A stretch of DNA of 64,000 nucleotides, taken from UHGV virus genome UHGV-0248979; one strand, given 5' to 3'. A program made the position numbers and the translations under genes. The stretch is from a virus. Shown in pieces: positions 10,541-61,714 of the stretch (its first letter is position 1; each line of letters opens with the position of its first letter). The notes beneath the pieces were generated by a model that saw only the letters and a program-made list of their open reading frames with translations, ran no database searches and was not told where the DNA came from.

Positions 10541-11086
10541 TTAGAGGTGTTTTCCGATAACTTCCGAAACTAATTCGTAAAGGTCATCGTCACTGCACAC
10601 GTCTACGCTAATTCCGATATCGATACTACGACTGCGGAACCCTACTTTGAGCGTTTTACCGAATTCGGTTTGTAGGGCTTTATAGAGTCTATTCTTATCT
10701 TCTTTAAAGAGAGGAACAGGTAGTCTAACAGTGAACTTGTAATGTTCTTTCGAAACAAGTTCGTTAGAATAATTAAAACGTTTAGCCACACGAGTTCCGA
10801 TAATCTGTGTTATCAGCTTAAACATTTCTTCGTCGCTATACGGTGTTGCACCATAACCGATATCAATAGAATTTCTACGGAATCCTGCGCAGAATAATGC
10901 ACCGAATTGCTCACGGAATTCTTTGTGTAGAATATCTTTTTCTACGTCCCACAGCCCGTAACCCAAGTCAATCGTGAATTTGTATTTTTCTTTGTCGACT
11001 AATTCGTTAGTGTAATCAAGTCTAGTGAAGTTCATGGTATATTCTCCTAAAATGGTTTCGTTAAGTGAGAGTAACTGAACTCTCAC
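10541..11086 (-). CDS. hypothetical protein built from two tandem ~85-aa repeats
   Basis: Internal duplication (NELVDKEKYKFT...SIDIGYG vs NELVSKEHYKFT...SIDIGIS); likely true start is the ATG near 11035 (MNFTRLDY) with an AGGAG RBS. Confidence 0.6.
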   Translation of the reverse strand: MRVQLLSLNETILGEYTMNFTRLDYTNELVDKEKYKFTIDLGYGLWDVEKDILHKEFREQFGALFCAGFRRNSIDIGYGATPYSDEEMFKLITQIIGTRVAKRFNYSNELVSKEHYKFTVRLPVPLFKEDKNRLYKALQTEFGKTLKVGFRSRSIDIGISVDVCSDDDLYELVSEVIGKHL

Positions 11087-30649: not shown

Positions 30650-31423
30650 TTAAAAGATAAAATGACCAGTTAATGCTTCTGCCTCAACACCAGGCATCGA
30701 TGGAGGTGCTGAATATGGAAAAGTAAGACGCACGGTTGCGCCCTTTAAATACGCAATACGGTAGTACGTGGTCAAGAGCGCATTCCCGTAAGTACAATCG
30801 TTATAGAAGAAACCTTCGGTGGCAAACGTCTTTTCGTTGATTTTCGAATAGACTAAGATACCTTCAACTTTACCATCTTTACGGCAGCACAAACCTTCTG
30901 CTGCACCAATCGCTAACAATTCCAGGCAGCGCGTATCCAAGCTGACATTAACCACCTTAGTGATCGTAAACGTTTCTTCTAACGTTAGAGATTCAATATC
31001 ATCTACATCAGGCAAATCGGTGCGAACTTCAGGTTTTTCAGTAAACGTCAGCTCATAATCGATGAACGACGGCTGCATACGCAAGAACGCCATTAACTGA
31101 TCGCGACGTTTTAGGTCATTGGCAGGGTATGTGACATCAAACACCTCCACATCTAACAAACGTTTGAGTTGTGCGAAATTAATTTTCTTCTTCGCAAACA
31201 CAACGATTGCCGACATGTAGAAAATCTTACCATCGGCGCGACCGGAGAAGACACATTGCAGCTGATTCGTGTTCGAAAGAATGATAAAGGTCGGATCTTC
31301 AGATTCGCGAATGATGTCTTTTTCCATCAACCCTTTTCGTAGACGGGTTAGCGAAACTATTCTACCACCCACACCAATTGCTAAATGGTCATTACGATAA
31401 TCGTCAATATCCACTATACGCAT
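30650..31423 (-). CDS. hypothetical protein
   Basis: 257-aa ORF. Confidence 0.55.
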   Translation of the reverse strand: MRIVDIDDYRNDHLAIGVGGRIVSLTRLRKGLMEKDIIRESEDPTFIILSNTNQLQCVFSGRADGKIFYMSAIVVFAKKKINFAQLKRLLDVEVFDVTYPANDLKRRDQLMAFLRMQPSFIDYELTFTEKPEVRTDLPDVDDIESLTLEETFTITKVVNVSLDTRCLELLAIGAAEGLCCRKDGKVEGILVYSKINEKTFATEGFFYNDCTYGNALLTTYYRIAYLKGATVRLTFPYSAPPSMPGVEAEALTGHFIF

Positions 31424-32238
31424 TAGAGCACTCCCAGTAATTCAGTCACCGTTTTCCGAGTAGCGCCAGACGCACCCATATAGCGACCGACCTCAATACT
31501 ACGCCACTTAAAACCGTAATAAATTTCTCGGGTGAGCAGGGTGTCTGCATTTGACAACACGACACTGTTGCCACGTTCCACCTGCTGCTGTAGTAACTTG
31601 GCCAATTCACGATGATCCGTTTGTGAGAATTCTTTACGGTGGTATTGCGCATGTTTCGCAGTATCCGATAACGGAATATACGGAGGATCAGCATAAATCA
31701 CAGCATCCTCAGGTGTCCGTGCTAATACAGAACGAAAGTCCTCACAAACAATTTCCAGATAATCAACTTCCGCACAACGTTTAGCCCAATCCCGAATTTC
31801 TTCTAATGGATAATAAACCCCATTCGGGTAACGTCCAAACGGAACATTGAACCCACCGCTACTGTTATAGCGACACATACCGTTATAACCGTGACGCATT
31901 AAGTATAAAAACATCGCAGCACGCTCAACTTCTGACATCGATTTACCGCTATTAAACAGCTCACGACGCTCCATATACTTTACAGTGGCATTACCGTCTA
32001 AGAACAACGGTTGCGACGCAGCGATCAGTTCTTCAGGCTGTTCACGCGCAACACAAAGTAAGCGTATCAAATCAGGGTTAGAATCCGATAAAATATACCG
32101 GCTGTAATTCGTATTTAGGAAAACAGACCCTGCACCCACAAACGGTTCTACAAAGGTTGTACGTTTAGGCAAGACCTTTTGTAATTCCCCTAAAACACGT
32201 GTTTTCCCACCCATCCACTTAATAATTGGTTTCCGCAT
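31423..32238 (-). CDS. dam: DNA adenine methyltransferase (Dam-like, GATC-type N6-adenine MTase)
   Basis: Near-identical blocks to enterobacterial Dam as recalled (VEPFVGAGSVFLNT, YGYNGMCRYN, catalytic DPPY in IYADPPYIP). Confidence 0.9.
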   Translation of the reverse strand: MRKPIIKWMGGKTRVLGELQKVLPKRTTFVEPFVGAGSVFLNTNYSRYILSDSNPDLIRLLCVAREQPEELIAASQPLFLDGNATVKYMERRELFNSGKSMSEVERAAMFLYLMRHGYNGMCRYNSSGGFNVPFGRYPNGVYYPLEEIRDWAKRCAEVDYLEIVCEDFRSVLARTPEDAVIYADPPYIPLSDTAKHAQYHRKEFSQTDHRELAKLLQQQVERGNSVVLSNADTLLTREIYYGFKWRSIEVGRYMGASGATRKTVTELLGVL

Positions 32239-33989: not shown

Positions 33990-34349
33990 TTAGTGTGTTA
34001 CAGTGTTAGTGATAAAACGCACATTCTTCTTGGTACGTTTAATGGACGTGTTTGCAACGTAGTCCAATGCGGACTCTACGTGAACGGTTACTGAGCAACG
34101 ACCCTTAACGGAATTAAAACTAATCTGATATTTCAGACGAATCGCATCAGCAACTTTCATCATAATCGGCAAGCTTAAACGTTCTACGCGTTCGTTCTTA
34201 ATAGATGAGATAACGGGTTGTGAAACTTTCGCAAGCTGGGCAAGCTCACGCTGGGTAATGTCTTTCGTGGTCAAATGACAAACTACGTAAGACAAATGAA
34301 GGCCAAATTTACGTTTTGCCAGAACGATGGAATTGTGATTGTAAGCCAC
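33990..34349 (-). CDS. helix-turn-helix (XRE-like) transcriptional regulator
   Basis: 119 aa; HTH segment ITQRELAQLAKVSQPVISSIKN; GTG start with AAAGGAG RBS; first gene after promoter copy 3. Confidence 0.65.
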   Translation of the reverse strand: MAYNHNSIVLAKRKFGLHLSYVVCHLTTKDITQRELAQLAKVSQPVISSIKNERVERLSLPIMMKVADAIRLKYQISFNSVKGRCSVTVHVESALDYVANTSIKRTKKNVRFITNTVTH

Positions 34350-54749: not shown

Positions 54750-57044
54750 TTACTTACCGGCAGCAGCTTTGCCTTCGCCAGCAACGTTACCTGCTACACC
54801 ACCTTCGGTTTGTTTCTGACCGTTCTGTTCAACAGAAACATTGTAAGCCAGTTTTTCTTCAACCAGTTTGGTGATGCCTTTAACCCAGATCAGACCAGTG
54901 ATCGGGCAGTGGCAGATGTGCGCGTTACGCGGCTGTACGGCCAGCTCTTTAGAGGTAGAGCCGTTACGCTGAATGTTGATGTTAGTAACCATGATCGGAG
55001 ACCAGAAGTGGTTACCCCAGTTCAGCACGTTGTAGGAACCATCGTCCGCAGTCGGAACTTTCAGGAACCATTGCAGACGACGAGTCCAGGAACCGTCAGC
55101 TGCGTTGTAGATACGCCAGCGGTCATCGTTGGTGGTGATCACTTCGTATTCGTAGCGATCGCCCAGCAGACGTTGGTCGCCCTGTACCAGCAGCAGCATG
55201 GATGCAGTCGGTTCGTCGGTTGCAATAACAACCTTCGGCAGAATGTCCGGATCAGCAGTGTACAGACGCAGCGCAGGAATGAAGCGAGATTCCTGGATAG
55301 CCTGAGTTACCTGATTACCGATACGCTGTACCAGACCCTGACGAGCGTTGATCAGTGCTTCTTTGGTATCCAGGGACTGTACAACTTTATCAACGTTGTA
55401 GTCAGACTCTTTGAACCACGGAGCAACCCAGTGACGGCCCAGACCACGAATGGCCGGTTTGTCCCACGGAGTGATCATGCTTGCAGCAGCGTTACGTACC
55501 GCTTCGGTGTAAGACAGTGTCTGAGTGATAGCCAACTGTTCGTTACGGATGTTAACTGCGGAAATCAGGTCGTCCAGACGCTCGGTATCGTCGTATTCAA
55601 CGCCAACCGGAGACTTGGTCAGAATCGGAGAACCGTATTGCAGCTTGTAGTTTTCTTGTTCCCAGATTGGGTCGAGCAGCAGACCCTGGGTACGACGGTT
55701 TTCGTTGGTACGAGTACCATCGAAACGCCAGCCGATCAGTTCAAGTTTCAGATTTTCCAGGACAGCTTTGCCGGTACCAGTCTTAATATCAACTTTGTTA
55801 CCGGTAGCGTCGTACAGACCTTCGATTTCCAGTTTGTGACCAGCGATGTCAACTTTACCACCGAACTGACCGGTAGTGAACAGAGACATGTTGATGGTGA
55901 TCACATAACGCAGGGTGTAGGAGTTCTGTTCCAGTGTTTTCAGAGCCGGAATAGCTTCGCCTTTCCAGTCGGTAGTTTTCGCGTTCAGAGAGAACGCAGT
56001 ACGACGGAATTGCAGTACCAGCTCACGGCCATCACCTTCAGCAGGGCGCTGGAAGGTTGCGAACTGCATGTCGCGAACGTGCAGTTTAATGAATTTACCT
56101 GCTTTTGCATCTTCAGCCGCTTTACGTACGGAAATCAGCAGGCTGCCCAGAGCACAGCCCGGCGCGATTTCATCAGTTTCGTCGTAACCTTCGATTACGA
56201 TACCCGGATGCGCGGACAGCTGGAACAGGTTCAGAGTGTCTTTAGCAAAGCTCAGGTAGTTAGTCGGGTACGGAGGTACACGACCCAGACGAACAGATTC
56301 GTTCGGTACCAGATCTTCGCTTACGAAGTATTCAGCGTTTTCACCGGTTTCCATTACGTAAGGAACGATGTTGATCGCTTCGTCCTGGAGAACAGTGTGG
56401 TCAGTCAGCGCTTCATGTAAGTTACGACGATGATCTTCAACAACGTCTTTGCTCAGCAGTGCGTTCATTACACCGCGAGAAACGGTGGTCACTTTGGTAC
56501 GTACGGTAATACCAACATCGTTAGTGTCAACAGTGATGGTCGGGAACAGAGTCTCAGCAAAACGAGACTGGGTTTCCAGAGCACGTACGTTCAGCGTCCA
56601 GGTCAGACCCAGGTTTTTGTCGTAGTCTTTGTTGGTGTAGTATTCCTGAGCGACAACCATACGCTCTTTGCCCCAGTCGCCGTTACCAGCTTGGGAGCCA
56701 GGAATCGCAACGTCCAGGTTAAAACGGCTATGGAATTCCGGTTTAGCGTATTCTTGAGCTACTTTTTCTTGCAGGTCCATACCGTGACCAGCAGCACCCA
56801 GAATCATTGCAGAAGCAACTTCCGCAGCGTGGGACATTTTCTTACCGCCAGCAAACGCGTTTGCGTAGTGCTGTGCAGCGTCGTCACGCAGGGTACCAAA
56901 AACTTTAGTGTTGCTACGTACAGATTCACCAGCAACGATGGTGTTCCACATTTCGCCAGCAGTGTTGTTACTAATGACGCTTTGTACCAGCGAGTTACCA
57001 GCTTGTACGAGTTTCTCCAGATTAGAGATTCGGGTATCTTTCAT
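54750..57044 (-). CDS. major virion structural protein, probable major capsid protein
   Basis: 764 aa; codon usage visibly distinct (GC-rich third positions, CTG/CGT/GGT/CAG) as in very highly expressed genes; flanked by strong terminators. Capsid versus sheath not resolved. Confidence 0.45.
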   Translation of the reverse strand: MKDTRISNLEKLVQAGNSLVQSVISNNTAGEMWNTIVAGESVRSNTKVFGTLRDDAAQHYANAFAGGKKMSHAAEVASAMILGAAGHGMDLQEKVAQEYAKPEFHSRFNLDVAIPGSQAGNGDWGKERMVVAQEYYTNKDYDKNLGLTWTLNVRALETQSRFAETLFPTITVDTNDVGITVRTKVTTVSRGVMNALLSKDVVEDHRRNLHEALTDHTVLQDEAINIVPYVMETGENAEYFVSEDLVPNESVRLGRVPPYPTNYLSFAKDTLNLFQLSAHPGIVIEGYDETDEIAPGCALGSLLISVRKAAEDAKAGKFIKLHVRDMQFATFQRPAEGDGRELVLQFRRTAFSLNAKTTDWKGEAIPALKTLEQNSYTLRYVITINMSLFTTGQFGGKVDIAGHKLEIEGLYDATGNKVDIKTGTGKAVLENLKLELIGWRFDGTRTNENRRTQGLLLDPIWEQENYKLQYGSPILTKSPVGVEYDDTERLDDLISAVNIRNEQLAITQTLSYTEAVRNAAASMITPWDKPAIRGLGRHWVAPWFKESDYNVDKVVQSLDTKEALINARQGLVQRIGNQVTQAIQESRFIPALRLYTADPDILPKVVIATDEPTASMLLLVQGDQRLLGDRYEYEVITTNDDRWRIYNAADGSWTRRLQWFLKVPTADDGSYNVLNWGNHFWSPIMVTNINIQRNGSTSKELAVQPRNAHICHCPITGLIWVKGITKLVEEKLAYNVSVEQNGQKQTEGGVAGNVAGEGKAAAGK

Positions 57045-59685: not shown

Positions 59686-59859
59686 TTAGTAGTGTTCACT
59701 CCTCTTTTCGGTGAATATCTGCGTGAAACGGTTGGTAGACGGTTTTAACCGTTTATCCATGCCGAGCTGACTATACTTGTAGATACGTTGCTGTAAATTG
59801 GTCTTTGCTGCACTCTGTTCTGCAAGCATTTTGTCAGTAAAGTAGTAACCATTGTTCAT
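59686..59859 (-). CDS. small protein sORF-B (57 aa), tandem family member
   Basis: ATG with AGAGGG RBS; C-terminus QIFTEKRSEHY matches sORF-C QIFTERRSNY through synonymous codon changes. Confidence 0.6.
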   Translation of the reverse strand: MNNGYYFTDKMLAEQSAAKTNLQQRIYKYSQLGMDKRLKPSTNRFTQIFTEKRSEHY

Positions 59860-59949: not shown

Positions 59950-60120
59950 TTAGTAGTTACTTCTCCTTTCGGTGAAGATTTGTACTCGAGGATTATTAGA
60001 AGGTTTAAGCCTTTTATTTAATCCTAGCTGTTGAACTTCTCTTAATCGTTCATTAAACCTCGCTTGTTCTGCATAGCTGTTTGAAATAGAAGTAAAGATA
60101 CGTGAATTGTTGTTAGTCAT
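59950..60120 (-). CDS. small protein sORF-C (56 aa), tandem family member
   Basis: ATG with GAGG RBS; conserved LG(M/L)(D/N)KRLKPS...QIFTE core. Confidence 0.6.
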   Translation of the reverse strand: MTNNNSRIFTSISNSYAEQARFNERLREVQQLGLNKRLKPSNNPRVQIFTERRSNY

Positions 60121-60454: not shown

Positions 60455-60502
60455 TAAATAAAGTGTACCCCTAATCCCGAAAAGGATTAGGGGTTGCTTT
60501 TA
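60455..60502. terminator. hairpin terminator
   Basis: Hairpin cccctaatcc-cgaaa-aggattagggg followed by TTGCTTTTATTT. Confidence 0.6.
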
Positions 60503-61315
60503 TTTAGTCGCTACGTATTGAACATGGCCACATTCCTTACATTCCACGTTGGCTTTCGGGATTGTCAGGCCGGTTAAAGGAACACGTATTTGATACTGTG
60601 CTCCACATTCTTCACAAACAAAATCGTATTCTGGATAAACACGACCTTCTAATTTCTCTTCTTTCCTTAGTGTGCCTGCTAAGAACAGCATTGCGCCTAA
60701 CGCTTCATTAATCTGCTGTTCCCATTCTCCGTCTAACGGGTAAGCGAACGCGCGAGTCAACGTTTCCACCATCTCTGGAGTATTACTTACATAAACGTGT
60801 TTCAGTTCAAACTCAACACGTTCTAAACCAAACAATACGCGCGCCGTCACCGTAACATTATCCAACGTTTGTGCAAACACAACGGGATTATCGTCACCGT
60901 GCATTGCGAATAACGCAGCACGTTCGTATTCGATATCACTCCACTCGATTAGTTCTACAGATTTAATCGCTTCCGCAATCTCAGCATTACCGAACGTTTC
61001 GTGTTCCAATAATCCGACGATAACTTCATTCAACGATTTCAATTGCTGTAATCGAATCGTAGGATCGGTATTCACGATAAGTAAACGATGCATTCTGGAT
61101 TTCAACCAGTTAATCGTTCCTTCTACACCGCCCCTAAACGAGCAGATGCTTATCACTTCAGGTTCACGAAGGATAAGAGTAGATTTTCCTGCTGCCGTAC
61201 TCAAGTAGAGTTTAAAAGACTTATCGTTAGACTCTGCAACGATGGCAATGTCTTCAGTTGGAACGAAGTTTTCATTGCTCAGCCCACGCGGAAAATAATC
61301 TTTAATAGTAATCAT
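60500..61315 (-). CDS. hypothetical protein with C-terminal CxxC...CxxC pair
   Basis: 271 aa; C-terminal CEECGAQ...CKECGH zinc-ribbon-like motif. Confidence 0.6.
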   Translation of the reverse strand: MITIKDYFPRGLSNENFVPTEDIAIVAESNDKSFKLYLSTAAGKSTLILREPEVISICSFRGGVEGTINWLKSRMHRLLIVNTDPTIRLQQLKSLNEVIVGLLEHETFGNAEIAEAIKSVELIEWSDIEYERAALFAMHGDDNPVVFAQTLDNVTVTARVLFGLERVEFELKHVYVSNTPEMVETLTRAFAYPLDGEWEQQINEALGAMLFLAGTLRKEEKLEGRVYPEYDFVCEECGAQYQIRVPLTGLTIPKANVECKECGHVQYVATK

Positions 61316-61370
61316 CTTTTATGCTCCAATTAATAAAAAAATTAAGGGCACCCGAAGGTGCCTTATACAT

Positions 61371-61514
61371 TAACCACGACCAGTGCACTGTGCAACGGAA
61401 TTACCGTTGTCGATGCAAGTGTCGTAGCCTTTGTCGATATCCAGGTACAGGCAACCCAGAACAACAGCGATAACAACAGCGAAGATAGCTTTTTTGTGTT
61501 TTACAGAAATCATG
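61371..61514 (-). CDS. small signal-peptide/lipoprotein-like peptide (47 aa), unannotated
   Basis: ATG with AGGAG RBS directly downstream of promoter copy 4; MISVKHKKAIFAVVIAVVLG-C then a Cys-containing ~27-aa mature part; optimal-looking codons. Confidence 0.5.
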
Positions 61515-61559
61515 ATATAACTCCTAATTAGGTATTCGATAAATGAGTATTACGTAAAC

Positions 61560-61587
61560 TCTCACCTAGGTAATATATATCTGAAAT
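61560..61587 (-). promoter_or_regulatory. conserved phage promoter element, copy 4
   Basis: Minus-strand TTCAGATATATATTACCTAGGTGAGAG, about 50 nt upstream of the 47-aa sORF. Confidence 0.55.
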
Positions 61588-61714
61588 CTTTTTGAATCCA
61601 TATACCCTCTAGAACGCTCTAAAACGCATTCTAACGCAATTTTCTTTTTAAAGGGTAATTAGTCGTCTTAATGGAGAAATGACTTCTGTGTGGCGTTTAG
61701 GGATAAATAAAAGG

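What the first reader, a model, noticed from the sequence alone, without database searches (positions are those of the whole stretch)
61371..61514. Unannotated, codon-optimised small lipoprotein-like peptide under a conserved promoter
A 47-aa ORF below the track cutoff has an AGGAG RBS, a textbook signal peptide ending in LG-C, optimal-looking codons (CTG, GGT, CGT) and sits about 50 nt downstream of promoter copy 4. It is probably a highly expressed secreted or lipid-anchored peptide.
Basis: partly seen in the sequence, partly recalled or inferred. Interest (0 to 1): 0.45.

Follow-up and report, generated by a model that had tools for sequence, protein, structure and literature searches.

The report
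Hyper-expressed jumbo-phage envelope micropeptide
A real 47-residue gene of a giant SPN3US-like phage has codon usage as optimised as the major capsid gene and makes a membrane-anchored (in this lineage possibly lipid-anchored) peptide that exposes a disulfide-stapled knob to the periplasm; its target is unknown.

Summary
The ORF is real. It lies on the minus strand at 61370-61513, one base off the stated coordinates. It has an AGGAG 7 nt before the ATG, a conserved phage promoter box 57 nt upstream and a UUCG-loop terminator just after the stop.

It belongs to a family (PHROG 8574; SPN3US gp66) found only in SPN3US-like jumbo phages. No homologue turned up in 185,579 bacterial and archaeal genomes. 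Substitution patterns show purifying selection on the protein (pS 0.61, pN 0.29; C-terminal 19 codons pN 0.14).

The codon-optimisation claim holds strongly. CAI is 0.85-0.87 against a window mean of about 0.30, above the major head gene (0.72).

The lipoprotein reading is only partly supported. This lineage passes the PROSITE lipobox rule (VLG-C21) and has a short, signal-peptide-like hydrophobic core. But Leu at -2 fails the stricter lipobox patterns, and the Cys is replaced by Val, Ser, Thr or Ala in most relatives, which look like uncleaved membrane anchors.

What is invariant is the tail: Y-x-x-C-x3-G-N-S-x3-C-T-G-R-G.

Best model: an abundant, early, N-in/C-out envelope peptide whose stapled tail binds a conserved periplasmic target, most likely for superinfection exclusion or envelope protection. 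The function is inferred, not shown.

The parts
61370..61513 (-). Coding sequence of the 47-aa peptide, TAA stop included
   Evidence: ORF list. Full-length match to PHROG 8574, E = 3.4e-23. Ungapped alignment with 14 phage homologues. pS 0.61 against pN 0.29.
61454..61513 (-). Residues 1-20: positively charged n-region (K5 H6 K7 K8) plus apolar core AIFAVVIAVVLG. Either a signal peptide or the N-terminal part of a membrane anchor.
   Evidence: Read directly from the sequence. Passes the PROSITE PS51257 rule. The uncharged run is 16 residues and the minimum 19-residue Hessa sum is +2.8, similar to Lpp, Rz1, Pal and Llp controls. The control sequences and the scale were recalled from memory.
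61451..61453 (-). Cys21 codon (TGC), the candidate lipidation site (VLG-C). The +2 residue is Leu, so there is no Asp inner-membrane retention signal.
   Evidence: Conserved in all window-lineage contigs despite synonymous variation nearby. Replaced by V, S, T or A in most other lineages.
61373..61426 (-). Residues 30-47: invariant periplasmic module Y30-x2-C33-x3-G37-N38-S39-x3-C43-T44-G45-R46-G47, with a predicted C33-C43 disulfide staple
   Evidence: Invariant columns in alignment A2. pN is 0.14 against pS 0.61 for the last 19 codons. AF2 model: long helix 4-35, turn at NGNS, short helix 40-44, mean pLDDT 80.
61521..61525 (-). Shine-Dalgarno AGGAG, 7-nt spacer to the ATG
   Evidence: Sequence. 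Homologues carry AGGA or AGGAG at the same distance.
61559..61586 (-). Conserved phage promoter box TTTCAGATATATATTACCTAGGTGAGAG (copy 4 of 4 in the window), probably an early promoter read by the virion RNA polymerase
   Evidence: Exactly one copy lies upstream on the same strand in 41 of 48 related loci. Conserved AT-rich boxes of about 10 nt mark early vRNAP promoters in RNAP-encoding jumbo phages (PMC7598289). The assignment to the early class is an inference.
61332..61362 (-). Intrinsic terminator: GGCACC-UUCG-GGUGCC followed by CUUAAUUUUUUUAUU
   Evidence: -11.9 kcal/mol. A terminator of the same type (hairpin sequence GGUAGCC-UUCG-GGCUACC) follows the homologue in the Huxley/pEa6 lineage.

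Best explanation
The gene encodes a very abundantly made micro-protein of an SPN3US-like jumbo phage, probably expressed early. It is an envelope peptide with its N-terminus in the cytoplasm and its C-terminus outside.

Proposed steps:
1. Transcription starts at the conserved TATATATTAC box, inferred to be read by the virion RNA polymerase. It ends mostly at the UUCG-loop terminator, giving a short, essentially monocistronic mRNA with a strong SD and near-perfect codon usage.
2. The charged N-terminus stays in the cytoplasm. The apolar segment inserts into the inner membrane, and the last 20-25 residues reach the periplasm. There the two invariant cysteines (C33, C43) are oxidised into a staple across an N-G-N-S turn. 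This gives a tiny knob ending in the invariant T-G-R-G.
3. In the window lineage the anchor has apparently been converted to a lipoprotein signal peptide (VLG-C21, a shortened apolar core, then D25/D27). The mature product would then be a 27-residue lipopeptide. [quoted passage not shown] In most sister lineages the same knob hangs from an uncleaved transmembrane helix.
4. The knob binds a periplasm-exposed target stoichiometrically. That target is conserved among phages of Salmonella, Erwinia, E. coli and Proteus.

My preferred role is exclusion of superinfecting phage and protection of the infected envelope. For example, it might block the phage's own conserved tail-tip or ejection machinery, or a conserved envelope complex, as T4 Spackle/Imm and T5 Llp do.

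Shown: gene reality, selection on the protein, expression signals, codon bias, and variability of the anchor against invariance of the tail. Inferred: timing, topology, disulfide, lipidation, and above all the target and the exclusion role.
For: - Gene and family.
- Purifying selection concentrated on the tail.
- Signals.
- Codon optimisation equal to or above the major head gene (identified). In all but one of the related loci (L032, where the ORF was called with an upstream extension) the homologue's CAI exceeds the mean of its flanking genes (0.48-0.89 against 0.29-0.46).
- Phage-only distribution: one search found nothing in 185,579 species genomes. This argues against a captured host gene.
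- Topology: positive-inside n-region, apolar stretch, two invariant Cys in the tail, and a helix-turn-helix model.
- Switch from anchor to lipobox.
- Precedents for small early periplasmic lipoproteins that exclude superinfection: T5 Llp, which has a Cys11-Cys58 disulfide (PMC9586334), and Rtp45, about 6 kDa (PMC12685063).
- The promoter class also heads operons of non-structural genes in the window, such as a methyltransferase-like gene and an HTH gene. This fits an early class (PMC7598289).
Against: - No experimental data exist for any member.
- There is no sequence similarity to Llp, Cor, Rtp45, Sp or Imm. Only PHROG 8574 and one weak hit came up.
- Receptor-blocking exclusion proteins usually co-vary with the receptor. 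This tail is invariant across phages of different genera, so a receptor-specific block is unlikely.
- Capsid-level codon optimisation is more than known exclusion proteins seem to need.
- Timing rests on a motif class, not on a transcript map of this phage group.
- The lipobox is non-canonical (Leu at -2).
- The E. coli CAI weights, the hydrophobicity scale and the control sequences were recalled from memory. The codon result was reproduced with an internal reference.
Confidence: 0.35

Rival explanations
1. A lysis-related lipopeptide. It would be either an outer-membrane spanin-like component or a functional analogue of colicin release (lysis) proteins. The latter are 47-aa precursors with a 19-aa lipoprotein signal peptide, and their about 28-aa mature lipopeptides permeabilise the envelope when made in bulk.
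For: The size and layout match colicin lysis proteins exactly: 47 aa, a signal peptide of about 20 residues, a mature part of about 27 (PMC2896534). There is a weak hit to an Rz-like spanin PHROG (phrog_4297, E = 0.042). High expression suits a bulk membrane-perturbing agent.
Against: The spanin hit covers only the signal-peptide region and is not significant. No Pfam Lysis_col hit appears at E <= 1. There is no i-spanin-like neighbour: the flanking 271-aa and 268-aa proteins lack an N-terminal membrane segment. The mature part has no proline. The Cys is missing in most family members, whereas lipidation is essential for spanins and release proteins. The promoter type also heads non-structural operons, which suggests early rather than late expression. 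Bulk permeabilisation early in infection would be self-defeating.
Confidence: 0.12
2. A small membrane-active toxin for host takeover. The architecture resembles Hok/Gef-type peptides: about 50 aa, an N-terminal membrane helix and a periplasmic Cys-containing tail. It would depolarise or otherwise disable the inner membrane to shut off host functions.
For: Single apolar helix, about 47 aa, periplasmic tail with cysteines. Presumed early and abundant expression.
Against: No Pfam hit to Hok/Gef or other toxin families. Selection is strongest on the soluble tail, not the helix: pN 0.14 against 0.41. This points to a specific binding partner rather than generic membrane damage. A lytic jumbo phage needs an energised host for about 45 min (SPN3US cycle, PMC7411985).
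Confidence: 0.1
3. An abundant periplasmic modulator of a host envelope machine unrelated to exclusion. Examples are an inhibitor or decoy for peptidoglycan hydrolases or transpeptidases, the Lol, Bam or Lpt pathways, or an envelope-stress sensor. It would keep the envelope intact or silent while the large virions are built.
For: The tail is invariant across phages of different enterobacterial hosts, which implies a conserved target. Capsid-level codon optimisation implies stoichiometric titration of an abundant target. The knob works from either an inner-membrane anchor or a lipid anchor, so the target must be reachable from both.
Against: There is no homology to any known inhibitor. No genomic linkage is informative, because all neighbours are of unknown function. 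The idea is purely inferential.
Confidence: 0.25
4. Not a functional peptide gene: a chance ORF or a non-coding RNA element in a leader region.
For: The ORF is very short and falls below usual gene-calling cut-offs. It is not annotated in a few related GenBank records.
Against: The frame, the length (45-50 aa) and an invariant 10-residue pattern are kept in all 24 distinct family sequences. Differences are concentrated at third positions (762/708/1287) and pN is below pS. An SD is present in all members. Codon bias has z = 8-9. There is no meaningful Rfam match.
Confidence: 0.02

Closest known systems
SPN3US gp66 (SPN3US_0066, AEP83899.1) and PHROG 8574: hypothetical proteins of Seoulvirus, Machinavirus, Erskinevirus and Wellingtonvirus jumbo phages
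   Same: True homologues. They are 45-50 aa, align without gaps and share the invariant Y..C...GNS...CTGRG tail. They sit at the same genomic place, after the gp64/gp65 homologues, in the operon headed by the same promoter box.
   Different: Identity is 43-56 %. SPN3US and most others lack Cys21 and have a longer apolar segment, so they look like membrane anchors. In many of them the stop codon overlaps the start of a gp67-like gene, which the 64-kb window lacks; here a terminator follows instead. Codon optimisation is much more extreme in the window lineage.
T5 Llp, phage Rtp Rtp45 and Cor-type superinfection-exclusion lipoproteins
   Same: Small phage-encoded envelope proteins made early. 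They are lipid-anchored, face the periplasm and act by binding an envelope protein. Llp also has a disulfide (PMC9586334 and PMC12685063).
   Different: No detectable sequence similarity. Those proteins are larger (Rtp45 is about 6 kDa; Llp reaches at least residue 58) against a 27-residue mature part here. They are always lipoproteins, and they track the receptor specificity of their phage. This tail is invariant across hosts, and the anchor type varies.
Colicin lysis / bacteriocin release proteins (e.g. ColE7 Cel)
   Same: Identical format: a 47-aa precursor, a lipoprotein signal peptide of about 19-21 aa, a mature lipopeptide of about 27-28 aa, and high-level expression (PMC2896534).
   Different: No sequence match to Pfam Lysis_col. 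Those are plasmid-borne and SOS-regulated. As far as I recall they have no disulfide-stapled tail. Lipidation is obligatory there but dispensable in this family.
T4 Spackle (Sp) and Imm
   Same: Early phage envelope proteins that protect the infected cell from further phage attack. Sp acts in the periplasm on the phage's own conserved tail lysozyme (from my own knowledge). This is the kind of conserved target that would explain the invariant tail here.
   Different: Unrelated in sequence and size (83-97 aa, from memory) and not lipoproteins.
Lambda Rz1-type o-spanins
   Same: A small phage outer-membrane lipoprotein precursor with a similar signal peptide (…VVGC in Rz1, from memory, against …VLGC here). 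A weak PHROG 4297 hit, E = 0.042.
   Different: No partner i-spanin, no proline-rich periplasmic domain, a promoter class that is probably early, and a Cys that is not conserved.

Membership tests
PHROG 8574 / SPN3US gp66 family | Full-length profile match | tested here: met
   E = 3.4e-23, residues 1-47 on profile positions 1-47 of 47. Ungapped alignment with invariant Y30 C33 G37 N38 S39 C43 T44 G45 R46 G47.
PHROG 8574 / SPN3US gp66 family | Conserved genomic position and promoter | tested here: met
   It lies downstream of the gp64 and gp65 homologues. The same promoter box is upstream in 41 of 48 loci.
Bacterial lipoproteins (Lgt/LspA substrates) | Positively charged n-region and an uncharged h-region before the Cys, with the Cys at position 15-35 (PROSITE PS51257 rule) | tested here: met
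   K5, K7 and K8; residues 9-20 are uncharged; Cys is at 21; the pattern matches.
Bacterial lipoproteins (Lgt/LspA substrates) | Canonical lipobox [LVI][ASTVI][GAS]C | tested here: not met
   The sequence is V-L-G-C, and Leu at -2 is outside the canonical set. The pattern was recalled from the literature.
Bacterial lipoproteins (Lgt/LspA substrates) | Lipobox Cys conserved among orthologues | tested here: not met
   Cys occurs in the window lineage, ChrisDB/pEa9/Caitlin, the Wellington group and P0006 (which has Val at -1). It is V, S, T or A in the SPN3US, Huxley, pEa6, Asesino, Stratton, pEa11, L032, P0003 and P0004 lineages.
Bacterial lipoproteins (Lgt/LspA substrates) | Diacylglyceryl modification and globomycin-sensitive cleavage | not testable with these tools
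   Needs palmitate labelling, globomycin treatment, or mass spectrometry of the mature peptide.
Superinfection-exclusion lipoproteins (Llp / Cor / Rtp45) | Sequence or profile similarity | tested here: not met
   No PHROG, Pfam, NCBIfam, PADLOC or PDB-sequence hit other than PHROG 8574.
Superinfection-exclusion lipoproteins (Llp / Cor / Rtp45) | Expression early in infection | tested here: inconclusive
   It is driven by a conserved AT-rich box of the type that marks early vRNAP promoters. No transcript data are available.
Superinfection-exclusion lipoproteins (Llp / Cor / Rtp45) | Blocks adsorption or DNA entry of the same phage | not testable with these tools
   Needs plating, adsorption and injection assays on cells expressing the peptide.
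o-spanins (Rz1-like) | Adjacent, overlapping or embedding i-spanin gene | tested here: not met
   The neighbours are a 271-aa zinc-ribbon protein and a 268-aa gp65 homologue. Neither has an N-terminal membrane segment.
o-spanins (Rz1-like) | Profile match over the mature domain | tested here: not met
   phrog_4297 scores E = 0.042, residues 4-37 only, mostly signal peptide. The mature part has no proline.
Colicin lysis proteins (Pfam Lysis_col) | Precursor of about 47 aa with a lipoprotein signal peptide of about 19 aa | tested here: met
   47 aa with Cys21. The family description is in PMC2896534.
Colicin lysis proteins (Pfam Lysis_col) | Sequence match to the family profile, and location in a colicin operon | tested here: not met
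   No Pfam hit at E <= 1. The gene is in a jumbo phage genome.

The most novel reading that the evidence does not exclude
The gp66 family is a new class of phage envelope effector. It is a minimal disulfide-stapled knob of about 18 residues ending in T-G-R-G, made at capsid-like abundance from an early promoter. Evolution has repeatedly moved it between a transmembrane anchor and a lipid anchor; Cys21 is gained or lost within Machinavirus and within Wellingtonvirus. It would titrate an abundant, conserved envelope component of Enterobacterales by a mechanism unlike known exclusion, lysis or toxin peptides.
Probability: 0.25. Interest if true: 0.7.

Novelty: new variant of a known kind. Interest (0 to 1): 0.5.

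Why it matters
Micro-proteins below gene-calling cut-offs are routinely missed. This one appears to be among the most heavily translated genes of a roughly 225-kb phage lineage that recurs in metagenomes.

It is conserved in the well-studied model phage SPN3US as gp66, so it can be tested at once.

If the stapled tail binds a conserved periplasmic target, the payoff could be a new handle on the enterobacterial envelope, or on how jumbo phages exclude competitors.

The family is also a natural experiment in swapping a transmembrane anchor for a lipobox while the effector stays fixed.

Tried and rejected
- Known-family searches. Pfam, NCBIfam, PADLOC, PDB-sequence and Rfam searches gave nothing meaningful.
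- Large protein databases. The word-indexed 5.8-billion-protein search returned only a 98 % identical copy. The exhaustive phmmer search gave 5 more family members plus P0007. P0007 is a 381-aa protein with four tandem copies of a similar Cys-loop motif (E = 9e-4). It has no Pfam hit above the curated cut-off (best: plant thionin, E = 8.5e-4, below its gathering score) and no NCBIfam hit. I treat it as a lead only.
- Bacterial genomes. A scan of 185,579 species found no relative, so capture from a host is rejected.
- Spanin reading. Rejected because there is no partner gene, no proline, the Cys is not conserved and the profile hit is insignificant.
- Chance ORF or RNA element. Rejected on the comparative coding evidence.
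- Compositional explanation of the codon bias. Rejected: GC3 is 0.47 against 0.43, while 37 of 46 codons are the head gene's preferred codon.
- Literature. No paper mentions SPN3US gp66. The SPN3US infection proteome paper (PMC6384053) is not held. A free-text search for the promoter motif was uninformative.
- Unusable records. GenBank entries SPFM1, SPFM6 and SPFM7 are scrambled at this locus and were discarded.
- Partner genes. SPN3US gp67, gp68 and gp69 have no homologue in the window and no annotated function.

Full report
**What is there.**
The finding points to a 47-codon ORF. It is on the minus strand at 61370..61513 with its TAA stop, one base off the stated range. It encodes MISVKHKKAIFAVVIAVVLGCLYLDIDKGYDTCIDNGNSVAQCTGRG.

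- AGGAG (61521-61525) sits 7 nt before the ATG.
- The box TTTCAGATATATATTACCTAGGTGAGAG (61559-61586) ends 57 nt upstream of the ATG.
- This is the fourth of four copies in the window, all on the minus strand. It is letter-for-letter the same in Salmonella phage SPN3US and Erwinia phage ChrisDB.
- Directly after the stop is a GGCACC-UUCG-GGUGCC hairpin and a T-run.

The unit is therefore promoter, leader, SD, 47 codons, terminator.

**What genome this is.**
Megablast matched only the promoter region in 48 jumbo phages of Salmonella, Erwinia, E. coli and Proteus. At the protein level, the neighbouring 439-aa virion protein is 66-69 % identical to those of SPN3US, Asesino and phiEaH2.

The window is thus a distinct lineage of the SPN3US-like, phiKZ-related jumbo phages. 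The same lineage (peptide 98-100 % identical) recurs as 201-229-kb contigs in the metagenome collection and as 152-225-kb contigs in IMG/VR.

**Is it a gene?**
Yes.

- The peptide matches PHROG 8574 over its full length (E = 3.4e-23).
- tblastn finds it in 61 phage records. In SPN3US it is gp66 (SPN3US_0066), annotated as hypothetical.
- Fifteen sequences align without a single gap. Y30, C33, G37, N38, S39, C43, T44, G45, R46 and G47 are invariant. Metagenomes and the exhaustive protein search raise the total to 24 distinct sequences.
- Across lineages pS is 0.61 and pN 0.29. The last 19 codons have pN 0.14 against 0.41 for the rest, and differences pile up at third positions.
- Within the window lineage five of six variable sites are synonymous third positions.
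- No relative exists in one genome each of 185,579 bacterial and archaeal species, so the family is phage-specific.
- Rfam gives nothing meaningful.

**Codon optimisation.**

| Reference | Small ORF | Other long genes | Test |
|---|---|---|---|
| E. coli weights (Sharp-Li, recalled from memory), | CAI 0.851 | mean 0.293, sd 0.088 (51 genes) | z = 8.3 against synonymous recoding with the phage's own usage |
| Window's own major head gene, | CAI 0.868 | mean 0.308, sd 0.060 | z = 9.4; none of 1180 47-codon windows reach it |

- The only comparable gene is 54750-57044 (CAI 0.724), which is the major head protein.
- 37 of 46 codons are the head gene's preferred codon, against 41 % on average elsewhere.
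- GC3 is unremarkable (0.47 against 0.43), so this is not a compositional effect.
- In all but one of the related loci the homologue's CAI exceeds the mean of its flanking genes (0.48-0.89 against 0.29-0.46). The exception is L032 (0.38 against 0.37), where the ORF was called with an upstream extension.

The selection is therefore old and is strongest in this lineage.

**Promoter class.**
In RNAP-encoding jumbo phages, a conserved AT-rich box of about 10 nt centred near -10 marks early promoters. These are read by the virion-packaged RNA polymerase (PMC7598289).

- The box here fits that description and heads operons of non-structural genes elsewhere in the window.
- It precedes the peptide gene, directly or one to four genes upstream, in 41 of 48 related loci.
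- No sigma-70-like promoter was found there.

Early expression is thus a reasonable inference, not a measurement.

**Lipoprotein or not?**
For the window peptide:

- K5, K7 and K8, an uncharged core and Cys21 satisfy PROSITE rule PS51257.
- The lipobox V-L-G-C fails the stricter [LVI][ASTVI][GAS]C pattern because of Leu at -2.

The alignment column holding Cys21 varies across the family:

- Cys in the window lineage (VLGC), ChrisDB/pEa9/Caitlin (ALAC/TLAC), the Wellington group (AVAC/AAAC/GVAC) and P0006 (VLVC, which is non-permissive).
- Val, Ser, Thr or Ala in the SPN3US, STsAS, pEa29, Huxley, pSal04, pEa6, Asesino, Stratton, pEa11, L032, P0003 and P0004 lineages.

Both states occur within Machinavirus and within Wellingtonvirus, so the anchor type has switched repeatedly.

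The hydrophobic segment co-varies with the Cys (scale and control sequences recalled from memory):

| Group | Uncharged residues | Minimum 19-residue insertion score |
|---|---|---|
| Cys-less members | 15-22 | -2.8 to +1.7 (membrane-anchor-like) |
| Window lineage | 16, then D25, D27, K28 | +2.8 |
| Genuine lipoprotein signal peptides | - | Lpp 3.0, Rz1 2.9, Pal 4.0, Llp 4.2 |

My reading is that the family is defined by an N-in/C-out anchor plus the invariant tail. The window lineage has plausibly converted the anchor into a lipoprotein signal peptide. That would give a 27-residue lipopeptide with Leu at +2, hence outer-membrane sorting by the Lol rule. Only labelling experiments can settle this.

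**The tail.**
AlphaFold2 used a 7-sequence alignment. It predicts one long helix (residues 4-35), a turn at N-G-N-S and a short helix (40-44), with mean pLDDT 80. This places C33 and C43 on either side of the turn. Two invariant cysteines in an exported segment suggest a DsbA-made staple.

No structure or profile in the PDB sequences, Pfam, NCBIfam or PADLOC matches.

P0007 is a 381-aa protein of unknown origin. It carries four tandem copies of a similar Y-[ND]-x-C-I-G-N-G-x-[ST]-x-x-Q-C motif. The match is borderline (E = 9e-4), and nothing useful is known about the protein.

**Mechanism.**
- Shown: expression signals, capsid-level codon optimisation, purifying selection focused on the tail, an interchangeable anchor, phage-only distribution.
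- Inferred: the peptide is made early and in bulk and inserts N-in/C-out. Its stapled knob binds something in the periplasm stoichiometrically.

The knob is invariant in phages of Salmonella, Erwinia, E. coli and Proteus. The target should therefore be conserved too: either a core envelope machine or the phage's own conserved tail-tip or ejection apparatus.

The nearest functional precedents are early phage envelope proteins that protect the infected cell from further attack:

- T5 Llp, a small periplasmic lipoprotein with a disulfide (PMC9586334).
- Rtp45, an exclusion lipoprotein of about 6 kDa bound to LptDE (PMC12685063).
- T4 Spackle and Imm (from my own knowledge).

I put superinfection exclusion or envelope protection first, at about 0.35. 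A non-exclusion envelope modulator comes second (0.25). A lysis or release lipopeptide (0.12) and a Hok-like toxin (0.10) follow.

The colicin lysis proteins are a remarkable match in format: a 47-aa precursor with a 19-aa lipoprotein signal peptide (PMC2896534). They are not homologous, and lipidation is obligatory for them, unlike for this family.

**Novelty and score.**
The family is already catalogued (PHROG 8574) and annotated as hypothetical in GenBank, but nothing is known about it. I found no paper that mentions gp66. The kind, a small phage-encoded envelope or lipo-peptide, is known. The specific module, its extreme expression signature and the anchor switching are new.

I rate it a new variant of a known kind, with interest 0.5. 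It is cheap to test because SPN3US has genetics and proteomics.

Noticed in passing
window 61540-61563 (-), and after the other promoter copies near 11086, 15330 and 34404 (-); L001, L002, L015 and other loci: A hairpin begins right after the promoter box (GTGAGAG…CTCTCAC). It is maintained by compensatory changes between copies and phages: SPN3US GATAGA/TCTATC, ChrisDB GAGATTA/TAATCT, STsAS GAGAGTTGA/TCAACTCTC. It may be a 5'-terminal stabilising stem on early transcripts or part of promoter function. It is weakest in copy 4.
   Followed up: partly
window 61607-61627 (-), with a degenerate third unit just upstream: Tandem GCGTTnTAGAG units occur only upstream of promoter copy 4. SPN3US and ChrisDB carry GCGTTATAGAGGG at the same place, and SPN3US also has the inverted CCCTCTAAACGC further upstream. 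This may be a regulator site specific to this operon.
   Followed up: partly
L001 3578-3763, and L004, L005, L007, L011, L015, L032: In many relatives the peptide's stop codon overlaps the ATG of a 60-aa acidic gp67-like gene (PHROG 14868, unknown function), which suggests translational coupling. The window lineage and the Huxley/pEa6 lineage lack it and have a UUCG-loop terminator instead.
   Followed up: partly
window 54750-57044 (-): This is the major head protein gene (PHROG 3231). It is the only other gene in the window with strong codon optimisation: CAI 0.72 against a mean of 0.29.
   Followed up: yes
window 59686-59859 and 59950-60120 (-): Two paralogous 56-57-aa ORFs share a …QLG(L/M)(N/D)KRLKPS…QIFTE(R/K)RS… tail. 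They recall the SPN3US gp71/gp72 pair of 48-aa paralogues.
   Followed up: no
window 60500-61315 (-): The downstream 271-aa gene is a homologue of SPN3US gp70 (PHROG 10180). It ends in a CxxC…CxxC zinc ribbon. The ribbon of SPN3US gp70 weakly matches a 'translational regulator' PHROG (E = 0.002).
   Followed up: no
L012, L013, L014 (GenBank LR535904, LR535905, LR535901): The SPFM7, SPFM6 and SPFM1 records have this locus scrambled, with segments of the peptide gene permuted. These look like assembly errors.
   Followed up: partly
P0007 (381 aa, from the representative library): A protein with N-terminal membrane segments and four tandem repeats of a Cys-loop motif resembling the peptide's tail (AYNTCIGNGNSASQC…). 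It has no hit above the curated cut-off in Pfam (best: plant thionin, E = 8.5e-4) and none in NCBIfam.
   Followed up: partly
window 31423-32238 and 33990-34349 (-): The operon behind promoter copy 3 contains a protein that looks by eye like a Dam-type DNA methyltransferase (DPPY motif) and a 119-aa protein that looks like an HTH protein. This fits an early, non-structural promoter class.
   Followed up: no
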